DNA of 51,350 nucleotides from a virus (IMGVR_UViG_2690315831_000003); one strand, 5' to 3'; positions 10,247 to 49,341 are shown, numbered from the stretch's first letter. The notes: generated by a model from the sequence alone, not told the origin. Translations and numbers: made by a program.

Positions 10247-10615
10247 ATGACTGAATTAACAAAAGAGCAATTAATCAAAGAAGCCAAATTAAAAATAGCG
10301 GTTGCGAAATGTTACCCTAATTCAGAGATGGCCAGGGTAGAGGGAGAGCTATTCAAAATTGCACTGGCATCGCTGGAGGCGGTTCCGGTGGCATGGCTGC
10401 ATTCAGACAATGGCCTGGGTATTCCAGCAATAACCAGGAGTAAAAACGTTGCTGATAGTTGGTTATCAAAGGGCTGGTATGTTCAGCCGTTATATGTAGC
10501 CCAACCTGTACCGGTGGTGCCGGATGCTCGTCCATCTTTAAATAATGGCATTGTCGGATTTGATGAAGGCTGGAATGCCTGCCGGGATGCCATGCTTAAT
10601 GGAGATAAATCATGA
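10247..10615 (+). CDS. Hypothetical nin-region protein
   Basis: 122-aa ORF with ATG start, coupled to the next ORF. Confidence 0.5.
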   Translation: MTELTKEQLIKEAKLKIAVAKCYPNSEMARVEGELFKIALASLEAVPVAWLHSDNGLGIPAITRSKNVADSWLSKGWYVQPLYVAQPVPVVPDARPSLNNGIVGFDEGWNACRDAMLNGDKS

Positions 10616-11313
10616 TTAATCGTATCAAACTGGAGCACATCCTCGAATATGCCGGGCAGCAGAGGCATATTGGTCAGCATTGTAAAATTCCACCAGGAGA
10701 TATGGTTGAAATCATGGAGATTGCCATGCGCAAGGCTGGCAACCCTCCGGTAACTCCGGGGCGTTTGCCTGGCGGTTTCACCATTGAGGAGGCGAAGGAG
10801 TTACATGAAGACCTGGTGCGCAGCCACATAAGCAAGGCTTTAAGTGGCGAAAAGATGAAGAAGAAGGATCTCGATGCTGATTTGCGCTGGATCCATGGGG
10901 TTATAGTCCAGGCCGCCTGGTTTGTAAAAGCATCACTGGAGCAGAATGTGCTAACGGGTAACTCTCAGGTAATCCCTGATGACGGTCGCGAACAGTTTGA
11001 AACACTTATCAGGTTCCATGCAGATGATAAAAACCATGAAACATTATTGCTTCGTGCTAACGAAGGGATGAATTACCGGGATCCAAATGTGGATTTGGCA
11101 TGGATATTCTGGAAATCCAGTCGAGAGCACATATTGCCTGGAAAAAGCGACAATAATCCAGCATCAGGCGATCAGGTAAGTGAATTAACAATGTGGGTGA
11201 AGCGGTTATCTCATTCCTTAAAAAGCGTTAATAAATCAAGCAAACTACCGGATAAAGCGATGGACTACCTGAAGCGAAACGGACTGATAAACGAGGAGAA
11301 TATTTTACGATGA
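10612..11313 (+). CDS. Hypothetical nin-region protein
   Basis: 233-aa ORF, start overlaps the upstream stop. Confidence 0.5.
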   Translation: MINRIKLEHILEYAGQQRHIGQHCKIPPGDMVEIMEIAMRKAGNPPVTPGRLPGGFTIEEAKELHEDLVRSHISKALSGEKMKKKDLDADLRWIHGVIVQAAWFVKASLEQNVLTGNSQVIPDDGREQFETLIRFHADDKNHETLLLRANEGMNYRDPNVDLAWIFWKSSREHILPGKSDNNPASGDQVSELTMWVKRLSHSLKSVNKSSKLPDKAMDYLKRNGLINEENILR

Positions 11314-11393
11314 CCTGGCCTGAAGCGTTCATAACGGTAGGAATTGCAATGGCGGTGGCGCTGGTGGTGTATTCGATTTGCCGCTGGGGATAA
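11310..11393 (+). CDS. Possible small hydrophobic peptide (27 aa)
   Basis: ATGA overlap with the upstream stop; GAGGAG 11 nt upstream; sequence MTWPEAFITVGIAMAVALVVYSICRWG is one predicted TM helix. Confidence 0.3.
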   Translation: MTWPEAFITVGIAMAVALVVYSICRWG

Positions 11394-11603
11394 AAACGGT
11401 TTGCGGGGAAAGAAGAGTTAAGTAGAATTGCTGCGGGTGCTTGAGGCTGTCTGCCTCGGGCATGCCGCCGTAAGGCAGACAGAGAAAAGCCCCAGTTAAC
11501 ATTACGCGTCTTGCAGGACGCTTAACATTAATCTGAGGCCCAATCTATGCTTCACAAACGTAGGTTAGCCTCTTACGTGCCGAAAGGCAAGGAGAAGCAG
11601 GCT

Positions 11604-11759
11604 ATGAAGCAGCAAAAGGCGATGTTAATCGCCCTGATCGTCATCTGTATTACCGTTGTTGTGACGGCACTGGTAACGAGGAAAGACCTCTGCGAGGTAC
11701 GAATCCGAACCGGCCAGACGGAGGTCGCTGTCTTCGTAGACTACGAATCTGAGAAGTAA
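11604..11759 (+). CDS. hokD: Hok/Gef-family type I toxin (HokD/RelF-like)
   Basis: 51-aa MKQQKAMLIALIVICITVVVTALVTRKDLCEVRIRTGQTEVAVFVDYESEK nearly matches recalled HokD/RelF; structured 5' leader with 10-bp hairpin and 3' fold-back hairpin GCGAGGGAgaaaTCCCTCGC. Confidence 0.85.
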   Translation: MKQQKAMLIALIVICITVVVTALVTRKDLCEVRIRTGQTEVAVFVDYESEK

Positions 11760-11927
11760 GAGTGACCAAGCGAGGGAGAAATCCCTCGCCACCTCTGATG
11801 TGTCAGGCATCCTCAACGCACCCGCACTTACCCCGTTTCGGCAGACTTTGTTTTTTCCTGGCATTCTGGTTTACAATTCGCACGTCAGCCTGAACAACTG
11901 GCACCTGCTGCGTCACCGGAGAACCCG

Positions 11928-12200
11928 ATGGCGCAACATATAAAATCCCACAATTCTGAAGTCGATCCGGCCATTAAGCGGGGGCGGCGTTCGCACGTAT
12001 TTAAAACTGACTGGTACCAGCATCCCCCATGCACTGAAGAACAGGCCGAATGGCTGATCCAGTGTTACCGCAGGCGCGGATATGAGTTTGAGAAAGCCCT
12101 CAGCCTCGATTATCGTCACTGGATAATCTCCGTCAGGCTCCCTTATTCCGAACGCCCACCGCGTCCGTCCCGCACATTCCAGCAGCGCATCTGGAGGTAA
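11928..12200 (+). CDS. Small protein in the Rem position
   Basis: 90-aa ORF between hok and the DUF968-like gene, mirroring recalled Qin order hokD-rem-ydfU. Confidence 0.45.
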   Translation: MAQHIKSHNSEVDPAIKRGRRSHVFKTDWYQHPPCTEEQAEWLIQCYRRRGYEFEKALSLDYRHWIISVRLPYSERPPRPSRTFQQRIWR

Positions 12201-16871: not shown

Positions 16872-16947
16872 GGCCCTTTAGCTCAGTGGTGAGAGCGAGC
16901 GACTCATAATCGCCAGGTCGCTGGTTCAAATCCAGCAAGGGCCACCA
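16872..16947 (+). tRNA. tRNA with CAU anticodon (Ile2/ileX-like or Met)
   Basis: Cloverleaf folded by hand: acceptor GGCCCTT/AAGGGCC, D-arm GCTC-AGTGGTGA-GAGC, anticodon loop CTCATAA, T-loop TTCAAAT, 3' CCA. Confidence 0.85.
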
Positions 16948-16956
16948 TATCACATA

Positions 16957-17033
16957 CCGCCATTAGCTCATCGGGATAGAGCGCCAGCCTTCGAAGCTGG
17001 CTGCGCGGGGTTCGAGTCCTCGATGGCGGTCCA
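16957..17033 (+). tRNA. tRNA-Arg (UCG anticodon)
   Basis: Acceptor CCGCCAT/ATGGCGG, anticodon stem CCAGC/GCTGG with loop CTTCGAA, T-loop TTCGAGT, 3' CCA; unusual C1-G72. Confidence 0.75.
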
Positions 17034-17740: not shown

Positions 17741-17877
17741 CAGGGGGAGAAGATTTTCTCCTGTCCTGATGATTTTGGGGCGCTGGAAAGATATTGTGCT
17801 GTGAAGTGTTAAATCCCTCACAATTCAGTAAGTTGACAGTTGCCTGTCAGACTGAGCATTTGTTAAAAAAATTTCGC

Positions 17878-18053
17878 ATGGTGAATCCCCCTGTGCGGAG
17901 GGGCGACTGGTGAACGGTATGATCTCTTTGATGATCGTAAGCGAGAATACGCGGGTTTGGTGTCACCGGGCTGAACTCACCGGGAGGCACCCGGCACCAT
18001 GCTCATGGTGATACAGAAATGCGGCTTCAGCCCCTCTCCGGAGGGGCTTTCTT
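17878..18053 (+). ncRNA. Putative sRNA, repeat unit A
   Basis: Promoter TTGCCT (17840-17845) / TAAAAA (17864-17869); terminator GCCCCTCTCCGGAGGGGC + T-run at 18030-18052; ORFs across the unit not conserved. Confidence 0.4.
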
Positions 18054-18060
18054 ATGGACA

Positions 18061-19529: not shown

Positions 19530-19852
19530 AACATATCCTGTATATTTATGTTGTTACATACAGGCGCTTTTAGTATCTGCCGCACGGCAGTTGTACTTCA
19601 GAATAAGATGCTTTTGTGACTGGTGGTGTTGTATCTGGGGTTAGCCAGTAGGCAGGTTCAGAGAGTCCGGTGGTAATTATGTGTATGCAGTGGTTGTTGC
19701 TGTACCGTGGGCAAGTTCTGGAACTGGCTTCGTCCATTGTAGATGATTGTTAGCTGGATATCAGTTACCTCATGGAAATGTTAAATGACTCACAATTCGG
19801 TTGATGGGCTATTGTCTGATCGATGGAAGTCTTGTAAAAACGAGCCAGCATA

Positions 19853-20012
19853 GTGAATCCCCCTGTGCGGAGGGGCGTCTGACATGGTCTCCATAGCGAT
19901 GGTCACAATACGCAGATTCAGTAGTCAGGCTGAATCTACCGGGAGGCACCCGGCACTATGCTGCTTATGGTGTATACATAGCGATCGGCCCCTCTCCGGA
20001 GGGGCTTTTTTT
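19853..20012 (+). ncRNA. Putative sRNA, repeat unit B
   Basis: Same conserved 5' and 3' blocks, divergent middle; terminator 19988-20012. Confidence 0.4.
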
Positions 20013-20111
20013 GTGCGGGAAAAGGCTGTGTTGTTAAGTGTTAAATTCCTCACAGTTCAGATGGTTGATGCTTGCCTGTCTGAGGGGGAGTTGTTAAAAA
20101 AGTTCTGCATG

Positions 20112-20282
20112 GTGAATCCCCCTGTGCGGAGGGGCGACTGGTGTGATTTGCATCTTTTCTGTTGTAGGCAATGCAAACGCGGGTTCAGGGACACCAGACT
20201 GGACTCACCGGGAGGCACCCGGCACCATGTTCATGATGATACAGATACGCAGTGTCAGCCCCTCTCCTGAGGGGCTTTTTTA
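20112..20282 (+). ncRNA. Putative sRNA, repeat unit C
   Basis: Near-identical to unit A over the first ~35 nt and the 3' hairpins; terminator 20258-20282. Confidence 0.4.
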
Positions 20283-20381
20283 TGCAGGAAAAACGCTGTG
20301 TTGTGAAATGTTAAATTCCTCACAGTTCAGATGGTTGATGCTTGCCTGTCTTACGGGGAGTTGTTAAAAAAGTTCTGCATG

Positions 20382-20544
20382 GTGAATCCCCCTGAGCGGA
20401 GGGGCATATCAGCGCAGGTGTTTCTACTCTATCCTTTCTGTGCGGGTTCAGGTGCTGATACTGAACTCACCGGGAGGCACCCGGCACCATGCAGTATACA
20501 GAGATTAGGCATACATCCAGGCTCCTCATCGCAGGAGCCTTTTT
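20382..20544 (+). ncRNA. Putative sRNA, repeat unit D
   Basis: Conserved 5' box and internal hairpin; different terminator GGCTCCTcatcgcAGGAGCC + T5. Confidence 0.35.
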
Positions 20545-20550
20545 ACATGT

Positions 20551-48858: not shown

Positions 48859-49056
48859 ACATCGCGCCCCGGGATTGCCGGAAGGAGACAAAAACCGTAC
48901 AGTATGCGCGGGTGCCTTTGGCTGATGGCCGGAGGGAACACCTGAAGGCCGGATGTGAAAAGGCCCCGGACAAAACATTCATGTTTAACCCGAGGCCTGA
49001 CGTTCTTCCTTCAGCAAGAAGAAGGTTAGCGCCTCTCCGTAAAAGGAGCAAGCGTT

Positions 49057-49197
49057 ATGTCGCAAAAACCGTTAAAAACCACCGTGATTTGTATCACGGT
49101 AGTGCTCATTATCTGGATCACCCACACTTCACTGTGCGAGTTCCGGTTCCGGATAGCGGGCGCGGAGATTGCGGCGTTCTTACAGTGTAAGCGGTAA
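49057..49197 (+). CDS. Hok-family type I toxin (second copy, divergent)
   Basis: 46 aa MSQKPLKTTVICITVVLIIWITHTSLCEFRFRIAGAEIAAFLQCKR: single TM plus LCEfR and E-x-AAF hallmarks; AGGAG RBS; overlapping mok-like ORF 48912..49190. Confidence 0.7.
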   Translation: MSQKPLKTTVICITVVLIIWITHTSLCEFRFRIAGAEIAAFLQCKR

Positions 49198-49295
49198 GAA
49201 ACCGTGGCGGGGGAGTGTACCTTCCCCGCCGACCGGTTGCTGAGGGTGATCAGCCGGATGGCACCTTTTTAACATCAATAAATCACAAATTTTAC

Positions 49296-49328
49296 CGCAG
49301 GCCGGGAAACCGGTCCTGCGGTTTTTTT
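49296..49328 (+). terminator. Intrinsic terminator after the hok-like locus
   Basis: CCGCAGGCCGG-gaaa-CCGGTCCTGCGG followed by TTTTTTT. Confidence 0.6.
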
Positions 49329-49341
49329 ATGGAGGAAATCC

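What the first reader, a model, noticed from the sequence alone, without database searches (positions are those of the whole stretch)
11400..11870. hok-family type I toxin locus in the nin-like region
A 51-aa ORF nearly matching HokD/RelF is preceded by a long structured leader (10-bp hairpin CTGTCTGCCT..AGGCAGACAG) and followed by a fold-back hairpin. The regulating antisense (Sok-like) RNA should lie on the minus strand over the leader, but I could not place its promoter. Unlike the Qin arrangement as I recall it, no relBE pair is adjacent. A 27-aa hydrophobic ORF (11310..11393) lies just upstream.
Basis: partly seen in the sequence, partly recalled or inferred. Interest (0 to 1): 0.45.

Follow-up and report, generated by a model that had tools for sequence, protein, structure and literature searches.

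The report
Intact prophage hok/sok toxin-antitoxin locus
This is an ordinary, apparently complete copy of the well-known hok/sok RNA-controlled toxin module carried by an E. coli lambdoid prophage; it is nearly identical to the experimentally studied hokW-sokW of Shiga-toxin phages and is already annotated in public genomes.

Summary
Window 11604..11759 (+) encodes a 51-aa Hok toxin (Pfam HOK_GEF, E 3e-23). It is 96% identical to HokW of phage 933W/Sp5 and 88% identical to K-12 HokD. The leader matches Rfam RF01794 at 117.7 bits (gathering score 59).

Every element of the plasmid R1 hok/sok model can be placed:
- hok promoter and the 5' tac element
- ucb, mok SD/ATG and dcb
- a 3' protective hairpin
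- fbi, complementary to tac across 365 nt

It would give a ~71-nt Sok RNA (11555 to 11485). This stretch is identical to sokW, whose -10 was mutated experimentally (PMC8621323).

K-12 Qin hokD shares only the hok SD onward, because relBE replaces its leader. The missing relBE therefore marks this copy as the intact form.

The same DNA is annotated hokD/"Hok/Gef family" in RefSeq, and related DNA occurs in 4741 of 5426 complete E. coli genomes. Verdict: already known, low interest.

Side observations: a broken hok terminator, a hypervariable Sok-target loop, a conserved unannotated 27-aa gene, and a second hok locus near 49057.

The parts
11401..11428 (+). hok promoter: -35 TTGCGG (11401-11406), 16-nt spacer, -10 TAGAAT (11423-11428); predicted start near G11435
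   Evidence: Read from the sequence. The -10 TAGAAT is kept in nearly all of 65 unique relatives, even where the upstream DNA is unrelated, and each has a TTG-type -35. The Rfam model begins at 11435. The start site is inferred, not mapped.
11435..11446 (+). tac (translational activator element), the 5' end of hok mRNA: GGGUGCUUGAGG
   Evidence: It pairs with fbi 11811-23 in the full-length fold and with ucb 11487-93 in the 3'-truncated fold. It is invariant across relatives.
11447..11482 (+).
   Evidence: Covariation at 11449/11480: A-T 29, G-C 27. It corresponds to Rfam RF01794 helix positions 11-23/37-49.
11487..11493 (+). ucb / anti-SD (AAGCCCC)
   Evidence: It pairs with the mok SD (11535-39) in the full-length MFE and with tac in the truncated MFE. 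Element definitions come from PMC9841398.
11485..11555 (-). Sok antisense RNA (~71 nt): a 14-nt single-stranded 5' tail (GUGAAGCAUAGAUU), a long hairpin, then a U-run
   Evidence: Maps onto the sokW misc_RNA of phage 933W (AF125520 58664..58734). The fold is -28.1 kcal/mol, z -4.1. sokW RNA was detected by northern blot in Sp5 lysogens (PMC8621323). Its presence here is inferred by homology.
11562..11590 (-). sok promoter: -35 TTGCCT (11590-11585), 17-nt spacer, -10 TAACCT (11567-11562), start at G (11555)
   Evidence: Read from the minus strand. The stretch 11560-11606 is identical to 933W and near-invariant in relatives. Takada et al. primers YO-421/422 replace exactly TAGGTTAG, the complement of the -10, to make the promoter-less sokW.
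11535..11538 (+). mok Shine-Dalgarno (GAGG)
   Evidence: It lies 8 nt upstream of the ATG at 11547. It is sequestered by ucb in the full-length fold and paired with dcb (11568-72) in the truncated fold. R1 also uses GAGG as the mok SD.
11547..11759 (+). mok-like ORF (70 codons), here in frame with hok, so it encodes an N-terminally extended Hok
   Evidence: 933W annotates mokW in the same way. Some relatives are frameshifted, or stop just before the hok ATG, and codons 2-5 are hypervariable. This points to a translational role rather than a protein role.
11550..11558 (+). Loop of the Sok-target hairpin (CUUCACAAA), complementary to the Sok 5' tail
   Evidence: P(unpaired) is 0.74 in the truncated mRNA against 0.43 in the full-length mRNA. 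Window 11540-11561 is the only hypervariable island inside the element.
11568..11572 (+). dcb (GCCUC)
   Evidence: It pairs with the mok SD in the truncated fold.
11604..11759 (+). hok toxin gene (51 aa); SD AAGGAG at 11589-11594
   Evidence: Pfam HOK_GEF E 3.4e-23. PHROG 251 'MokW-like host killing' E 2.5e-32. 96% identical to HokW. The exact protein occurs on >=1000 contigs and is named Hok/Gef.
11732..11756 (+). Hairpin with the 7-nt loop CUACGAA (11741-11747) presenting Tyr47 codon UAC (11742-11744); a candidate TadA A-to-I editing site (Tyr to Cys)
   Evidence: The hairpin appears in the MFE folds. The loop is CUACGAA or UUACGAA in 57 of 59 relatives, and stem pair 11737/11751 covaries. 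Editing of hokC/D/E at this cysteine position is stated in bioRxiv 10.1101/2025.08.07.668861. Editing here is inferred.
11770..11789 (+). 3' stem-loop (GCGAGGGA-GAAA-TCCCTCGC), the likely 3' end protector of the processed hok mRNA
   Evidence: I11. Compensatory changes at 11773/11786 and 11775/11784. The role follows R1.
11811..11823 (+). fbi (fold-back inhibitory element) CCUCAACGCACCC; extended complementarity spans 11804-11826
   Evidence: Complementary to 11432-11453 (I3 and I5). It pairs with tac in the MFE, where tac P(unpaired) is 0.01. Near-invariant across relatives.
11831..11856 (+). Remnant of the hok intrinsic terminator (CCCCGTTTCGGCAGACTTTGTTTTTT); the stem is broken
   Evidence: Most relatives, including K-12 Qin, have AACCCGCTTCGGCGGGTTTTT. 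The window version is unique among 65 unique sequences. No terminator was called, and only a 3-bp stem is left in the fold.

Best explanation
This is a complete hok/mok/sok type I toxin-antitoxin module of the HokW/HokD subgroup. It sits in the nin region (between P and Q) of a Qin-like lambdoid prophage of E. coli.

Proposed mechanism, by analogy with plasmid R1 and with hokW-sokW:
1. A weak constitutive promoter (-10 TAGAAT) makes a ~400-nt hok mRNA.
2. The 5' end of that mRNA (tac) base-pairs with fbi near the 3' end. This locks the RNA closed, with ucb masking the mok SD.
3. Slow 3' trimming back to the 11770-11789 hairpin removes fbi. tac then pairs with ucb, the mok SD pairs with dcb, and the target hairpin opens.
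4. In this open form, either ribosomes translate mok and, by coupling, hok, or the ~71-nt Sok RNA made from the minus strand (Psok TTGCCT-17-TAACCT) pairs through its 14-nt 5' tail with the target loop and mok start. That blocks translation and triggers RNase III cleavage.
5. Sok is unstable. When its synthesis stops (loss of the prophage, or prophage induction), stored hok mRNA yields Hok, a small inner-membrane peptide that collapses membrane potential.

Shown here: sequence and family membership of the toxin and leader, placement of all regulatory elements, covariation of two hairpins, and thermodynamic refolding consistent with the model.

Inferred only: transcription start sites, 3' processing, toxicity and the biological role. 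For the 91%-identical hokW-sokW, that role was helping lysis and phage release after induction.
For: - Toxin: Pfam HOK_GEF E 3.4e-23, PHROG 251 'MokW-like host killing' E 2.5e-32, 49/51 identical to HokW.
- Leader: Rfam RF01794 at 117.7 bits against a gathering score of 59, full-length match to the 157-position model.
- Homology: the DNA is 91% identical to the annotated mokW/hokW/sokW of phage 933W from 11310 to 11829. Psok and the hok SD region are identical to 933W.
- Experiments on the relative: hokW is toxic, sokW neutralises it, mutating the -10 abolishes protection, and both RNAs are seen on northern blots (PMC8621323).
- tac/fbi complementarity. In the folds, the full-length RNA shows tac-fbi and ucb-mok SD pairing. 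The truncated RNA shows tac-ucb and mok SD-dcb pairing, with the target loop opening from 0.43 to 0.74 unpaired. This matches the R1 scheme summarised in PMC9841398.
- Covariation in the 5' hairpin and the 3' hairpin.
- Sok fold: a free 5' tail, a hairpin and a U-run, z -4.1.
- Promoter hexamers are conserved across 65 unique relatives.
- Context: cI/cro-like genes, O/P, then hok, then DUF968, RusA and Q, all on the same strand.
Against: - Nothing here is measured. No RNA ends, toxicity or antisense expression were determined for this copy.
- The hok terminator stem is destroyed in this lineage, so the 3' end of the primary transcript, and hence the 3'-processing step, may differ from R1.
- tac/fbi shows no informative covariation because it is almost invariant.
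- Chromosomal hok loci tested in E. coli did not mediate post-segregational killing (summarised in bioRxiv 10.1101/2025.08.07.668861).
- The Rfam 'sok' hit is on the hok-sense strand and spans the whole leader. It identifies the locus, not the antisense RNA itself.
Confidence: 0.9

Rival explanations
1. The locus is a silent relic. It looks like a hok/sok module but no longer fires, as reported for the K-12 chromosomal hok loci. It is simply carried along by the prophage.
For: - The intrinsic terminator after fbi carries about 5 substitutions that break its stem. This version is unique among 65 relatives.
- In K-12 Qin, the hokD copy at the same position has lost its whole leader.
Against: - The toxin ORF, mok, both promoters, tac, ucb, dcb, fbi and both hairpins are all intact. 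They are identical or nearly identical to the functional hokW-sokW.
- The 933W-type locus also lacks the terminator and is still functional.
Confidence: 0.15
2. The real product is the 70-aa in-frame protein (11547..11759), a single longer toxin. There would then be no separate mok reading frame and no translational coupling.
For: - The ATG at 11547 is in frame with hok, with no stop between them.
- Most relatives keep this frame.
- Public annotations often call the 70-aa form 'Hok family toxin'.
Against: - Codons 2-5 of the extension are hypervariable.
- Several relatives have the upstream ATG out of frame, or have a TAG directly before the hok ATG.
- The conserved part of the extension coincides with the sok promoter on the other strand.
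- hok has its own AAGGAG SD.
- The 51-aa HokW alone is toxic.
Confidence: 0.1
3. The same module is present, but its selected role is defence against other phages by abortive infection, as reported for R1 hok/sok against T4. It would not then serve prophage maintenance or assist lysis.
For: - R1 hok/sok reduces T4 plating (cited in PMC8621323).
- Prophages often carry defence genes, and hok is enriched in prophages.
Against: - hok is not enriched near defence systems.
- The closest studied relative, hokW-sokW, promoted release of its own phage rather than blocking phages.
- Sequence alone cannot separate these roles.
Confidence: 0.2

Closest known systems
hokW-mokW-sokW of Stx2 phage 933W / Sakai prophage Sp5 (AF125520; Takada et al. 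2021, PMC8621323)
   Same: - The DNA is 91% identical from the 27-aa ORF through fbi.
- The toxin is 49/51 identical.
- The sok promoter and hok SD are identical.
- mok is in frame in the same way, and the tac/fbi, ucb and dcb layout is the same.
   Different: - Position in the phage: this copy is in the nin region on the early-right strand. In 933W the module lies at the far end of the genome, next to tail-fibre-region genes, on the opposite strand of the record.
- The Sok 5' tail and target loop differ: CUUCACAAA here, CUGAACACA in 933W.
- Here a degraded terminator follows fbi. In 933W the homology simply ends after fbi.
hokD (relF) of the K-12 cryptic prophage Qin
   Same: - It occupies the same genomic slot, upstream of the DUF968 gene (ydfU) and antiterminator Q.
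- The toxin is 88% identical.
- The hok SD, coding region, 3' hairpin and fbi are the same.
   Different: - In Qin, homology begins only at the hok SD. relB-relE lie where the hok promoter, tac, ucb, mok and sok should be, so Qin has no Sok and no leader.
- Qin keeps the intact terminator that is broken here.
- The downstream gene differs: there is no similarity between the 90-aa ORF and Rem.
hok/sok (parB) of plasmid R1, the paradigm of the family
   Same: It has the same regulatory architecture: weak hok promoter, tac/fbi lock, ucb/dcb switch, mok-coupled translation, a ~65-70-nt antisense with a free 5' tail, and a HOK_GEF toxin.
   Different: - The toxin is only about 44% identical (HokW against R1 Hok).
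- From my own knowledge of the R1 sequence, mok is out of frame with hok in R1. Here it is in frame.
- R1 is a plasmid, this is a prophage.
- Only one C-terminal cysteine is hard-coded here. The second would need Tyr47 to Cys editing.

Membership tests
[quoted passage not shown] | A small (~50 aa) hydrophobic toxin with the HOK_GEF domain | tested here: met
   Pfam PF01848 E 3.4e-23, 81.4 bits against a cut-off of 22. PHROG 251 E 2.5e-32. NCBIfam Hok subfamily models score below their cut-offs (52.8 against 73), which reflects subgroup divergence only.
[quoted passage not shown] | A structured hok mRNA leader recognisable by the curated covariance model | tested here: met
   Rfam RF01794 at 117.7 bits (gathering score 59), matching model positions 1-157 of 157 at 11435-11609 (+).
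[quoted passage not shown] | Long-range 5'-3' pairing (tac/fbi) that closes the full-length mRNA | tested here: met
   11432-11453 is complementary to 11804-11826. The two pair in the MFE, where tac P(unpaired) is 0.01. Fold z-score is -5.7. There is no informative covariation because both sides are invariant.
[quoted passage not shown] | A ucb/dcb switch: ucb masks the mok SD in the full-length form, and tac-ucb plus SD-dcb form after 3' truncation | tested here: met
   The ViennaRNA MFE partners for the full-length and truncated forms reproduce exactly this exchange. The scheme is as described in PMC9841398. This is a thermodynamic prediction only.
[quoted passage not shown] | An overlapping upstream reading frame (mok) whose start region is the antisense target | tested here: met
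   ATG at 11547 with GAGG SD at 11535-38, overlapping hok and here in frame with it. The Sok tail is complementary to 11542-11555.
[quoted passage not shown] | A cis-encoded ~65-70-nt antisense RNA (Sok) with its own promoter and terminator | tested here: inconclusive
   The promoter hexamers, a hairpin and a U-run are present and identical to the experimentally validated sokW promoter. No transcript data exist for this sequence.
[quoted passage not shown] | Toxicity of Hok, neutralisation by Sok, and RNase III cleavage of the duplex | not testable with these tools
   These are shown only for the 96%-identical HokW and for sokW.
[quoted passage not shown] | 3' exonucleolytic processing of a terminated primary transcript | tested here: inconclusive
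   The protective 3' hairpin is present and covaries. However, the terminator found in most relatives is disrupted here, so the primary 3' end is unknown.
relBE-hokD operon arrangement of Qin | relB-relE immediately upstream of hok, replacing the leader | tested here: not met
   The upstream ORFs are the 27-aa ORF and a 233-aa phrog_924 protein, with no RelE or RelB. The Qin alignment diverges upstream of the hok SD.

The most novel reading that the evidence does not exclude
Position could couple Hok release to prophage induction. This copy lies in the nin region, co-directional with the early-right (pR-type) operon, and it has lost its own terminator. Induction would therefore send antiterminated transcription head-on into the sok promoter and straight through hok. 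That would silence Sok by transcriptional interference and make long hok-containing transcripts.

This would be a concrete mechanism for the unexplained RecA-dependent loss of Sok and appearance of Hok reported for hokW-sokW.

In addition, the hypervariable Sok-tail/target-loop island would keep the many co-resident hok/sok copies insulated from one another. There are two in this prophage and up to 12 per genome.
Probability: 0.15. Interest if true: 0.4.

Novelty: already known. Interest (0 to 1): 0.1.

Why it matters
For annotation, it matters little. The toxin is already named in RefSeq, and the family has been understood since the 1980s-90s. A near-identical prophage copy was characterised in 2021.

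The window does give a clean, intact reference for what the K-12 Qin hokD locus looked like before relBE replaced its leader.

It also shows where the un-annotated parts lie: Sok RNA, both promoters, tac/ucb/dcb/fbi and the candidate TadA-editing hairpin. These coordinates are useful for RNA-seq interpretation in STEC strains.

The position in the early-right operon, together with the broken terminator, offers a testable idea for how induction triggers Hok.

Tried and rejected
- The consensus promoter/terminator scan found neither the hok nor the sok promoter, and no terminator. Both promoters deviate from consensus (TTGCGG/TAGAAT and TTGCCT/TAACCT) and had to be placed by homology to 933W and by conservation.
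- I looked for tac/fbi covariation in 59 relatives. Both sides are essentially invariant, and the few changes are wobble pairs or mismatches, so this is uninformative.
- RNAalifold on 19 leader variants recovered the Sok-hairpin region, with 3 compensatory pairs from a variant form. It did not recover the target hairpin, because the loop region is too variable to align.
- I tested whether the downstream 90-aa ORF is Rem, as in Qin. There is no similarity.
- I checked whether the 27-aa ORF is a C-terminal piece of the DUF551 proteins it clusters with. The 121-aa proteins do not contain it, so the cluster link is an artefact of partial gene calls. Their N-termini resemble the window's upstream 233-aa ORF instead.
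- I checked whether the S19-141 annotation could stand in for the whole window. It is only about 98.5% identical and is rearranged in the tail region, so coordinates had to be re-derived for the second hok.
- The weak Rfam hits to ceN48, v-snoRNA-1 and mir-302 are chance matches far below their gathering scores.

Full report
**What is there**

The region 11400-11870 contains a 51-codon ORF at 11604..11759 (+) encoding MKQQKAMLIALIVICITVVVTALVTRKDLCEVRIRTGQTEVAVFVDYESEK.
- It matches Pfam HOK_GEF with E 3.4e-23 and PHROG 251 'MokW-like host killing' with E 2.5e-32.
- It is 45/51 identical to K-12 HokD and 49/51 identical to HokW of phage 933W.
- The 175 nt upstream, 11435-11609, match Rfam RF01794 end to end at 117.7 bits (gathering score 59, E 1.4e-27).
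- That hit lies on the hok-sense strand and spans the whole leader. It identifies the hok/sok leader, not the position of the antisense RNA itself.

**Is it known?**

- The 631-nt stretch 11300-11930 is 100% identical in six complete STEC chromosomes. There the ORF is annotated 'hokD / Hok/Gef family protein'.
- Related DNA occurs in 4741 of 5426 complete E. coli genomes. The median is 2 places per genome and the maximum is 12.
- In phage records it is 91% identical to the annotated mokW/hokW/sokW of 933W and to many Stx phages.
- The exact 51-aa and 70-aa proteins are each found on at least 1000 contigs under Hok names.
- hokW-sokW has been characterised experimentally (PMC8621323). HokW is toxic and goes to the inner membrane. 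sokW RNA, made from its own promoter, neutralises it, with partial dependence on RNase III and Hfq. Sok disappears and Hok appears after RecA-dependent prophage induction. Deleting the locus halves phage release.
- hok enrichment in prophages is documented in bioRxiv 10.1101/2025.08.07.668861.

**Anatomy**

Aligning the window with 933W and K-12 Qin, together with folds, places every element of the R1 model as summarised in PMC9841398.

| Element | Window coordinates | Notes |
|---|---|---|
| hok promoter | -35 TTGCGG 11401-06; -10 TAGAAT 11423-28 | 16-nt spacer; start near 11435 |
| tac | 11435-46 | 5' end of hok mRNA |
| ucb | 11487-93 | AAGCCCC |
| mok SD | 11535-38 | GAGG |
| mok ATG | 11547 | In frame with hok |
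| Target-hairpin loop | 11550-58 | |
| dcb | 11568-72 | GCCUC |
| hok SD | 11589-94 | AAGGAG |
| hok | 11604-11759 | |
| 3' hairpin | 11770-77 / 11782-89 | Compensatory changes: 11773/11786 is G-C 35, A-T 14, G-T 8 |
| fbi | 11811-23 | Complementary to tac |

- In the predicted full-length RNA, tac pairs with fbi (tac P(unpaired) 0.01) and ucb pairs with the mok SD.
- When the 3' end is trimmed to 11803, tac pairs with ucb and the mok SD pairs with dcb. The target loop opens from 0.43 to 0.74 unpaired.
- These are thermodynamic predictions, but they reproduce the published switch.

**The antisense RNA**

On the minus strand the sequence reads TTGCCT (11590-11585), a 17-nt spacer, TAACCT (11567-11562), then a G at 11555.
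- The 933W sokW feature maps to 11555-11485.
- The window is identical to 933W from 11560 to the hok ATG.
- The primers used by Takada et al. to make promoter-less sokW replace exactly TAGGTTAG, the complement of this -10 (this is my reading of the primer sequences).
- The predicted 71-nt RNA has a 14-nt free 5' tail, a long hairpin and a U-run (-28.1 kcal/mol, z -4.1).
- Both promoters are conserved across 65 unique relatives from IMG/VR, even where flanking DNA is unrelated.

**Relation to Qin**

- In K-12, homology to the window starts only at the hok SD and continues through fbi and the terminator. Upstream lie relE and relB.
- The window therefore shows the intact form of the locus at the same position: replication genes, then hok, then DUF968, RusA and Q, all on one strand.
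- The lack of relBE is expected rather than odd.
- The prophage is Qin-like in other respects too, with dicB, DUF1391 and YdaT.

**Points where this copy differs**

1. Terminator.
   - Most relatives, including Qin, follow fbi with AACCCGCTTCGGCGGGTTTTT. Here it reads ACCCCGTTTCGGCAGACTTTG, which breaks the stem, and this version is unique among the 65 relatives.
   - No terminator is detected until far downstream.
   - The 933W type also lacks a terminator and is still functional, so this need not inactivate the locus.
2. Sok-target variability.
   - Variation among relatives is almost nil across about 400 nt, including synonymous sites of hok. The exception is an island at 11540-11561, which covers the mok start flank, the target loop and the Sok 5' tail.
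   - This fits selection for distinct Sok/target specificities among co-resident copies, but I did not test that.
3. mok frame.
   - mok is in frame with hok here and in most relatives.
   - Some relatives are out of frame or stop just before the hok ATG, and codons 2-5 are hypervariable. The extension is probably not selected as a protein.
4. Candidate editing site.
   - Codon 47 (UAC, 11742-44) sits in a 7-nt loop, CUACGAA, on a 9-bp stem. The loop is conserved in 57 of 59 relatives.
   - Editing of hokC/D/E to create the second cysteine is stated. Editing here is an inference.

**Rivals**

- A silent relic is possible (broken terminator; inactive chromosomal loci). It is disfavoured because every element is intact.
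- A single 70-aa toxin is disfavoured by the variability and frame changes of the extension.
- The biological role (maintenance, lysis assistance or phage defence) cannot be decided from sequence. The closest experimental evidence favours help with lysis and release.

**Verdict**

The feature is already known and ordinary, so interest is low. The most novel reading not excluded is induction-coupled silencing of Sok by early-right transcription running head-on through Psok.

Noticed in passing
window 11310..11393 (+): The 27-aa hydrophobic ORF (MTWPEAFITVGIAMAVALVVYSICRWG) looks like a real, mostly unannotated small gene.
- Thirteen unique nucleotide versions all keep 27 codons, the start and the stop.
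- pN/pS is 0.28 in frame, against 0.95 and 1.62 in the other two frames.
- Its ATG overlaps the stop of the upstream gene (ATGA).
- It also occurs without any hok next to it, in the early-left/ea22 region of BP-4795 and phage 24-2-1, filling an 'intergenic' gap. It is therefore an independent mini-cassette.
- No Pfam or NCBIfam family matches, and the phrog_4612 hit is weak.
- A few GenBank records call it 'hypothetical' or 'bacteriophage protein'. PGAP and the 933W record omit it.
   Followed up: partly
window 48910..49330 (+); hok ORF 49057..49197: There is a second, divergent hok locus in the same prophage, between the tail-tip J gene and the tail-fibre gene.
- It encodes a 46-aa ORF, MSQKPLKTTVICITVVLIIWITHTSLCEFRFRIAGAEIAAFLQCKR, with Pfam HOK_GEF E 6e-11.
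- The leader hits Rfam RF01794 at 50.3 bits, below the gathering score of 59, with E 4e-10.
- Both C-terminal cysteines are hard-coded in this copy.
- The equivalent position is annotated Hok/Gef in strain S19-141.
   Followed up: partly
window 11831..11856 (+): The hok intrinsic terminator is mutated at about 5 positions within 20 nt. This breaks the CCCGC/GCGGG stem found in most relatives and in K-12 Qin. hok transcripts may therefore read into the downstream 90-aa ORF and DUF968 genes.
   Followed up: partly
window 11540..11561: This is a hypervariable island (mok start flank, target loop and Sok 5' tail) inside an otherwise almost invariant ~400-nt element across 57 unique relatives. It may reflect diversification of Sok-target specificity.
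   Followed up: partly
window 11732..11756 (+): A tRNA-Arg anticodon-arm-like hairpin with loop CUACGAA presents Tyr47 (UAC) of hok. It is a candidate TadA A-to-I recoding site (Tyr to Cys), as reported for hokC/D/E.
   Followed up: partly
window 17847..18059, 19819..20014, 20078..20287, 20349..20550 (+): Four copies of the Rfam sRNA family STnc100 (RF02076, 119-172 bits) lie downstream of the Q/tRNA region, three of them in tandem.
   Followed up: no
window 16872..16944 and 16957..17030 (+): Two tRNA genes lie downstream of Q and a DNA methyltransferase gene. They are annotated tRNA-Ile and tRNA-Arg in the near-identical S19-141 prophage. This is the layout typical of Stx phages, but no stx genes are annotated there.
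   Followed up: no
window 10612..11313 (+) and 11928..12200 (+): The flanking genes have unknown function. The 233-aa ORF matches phrog_924, and its N-terminus resembles DUF551-type proteins. The 90-aa ORF matches phrog_1212 and is not related to Rem, which occupies that slot in Qin.
   Followed up: partly
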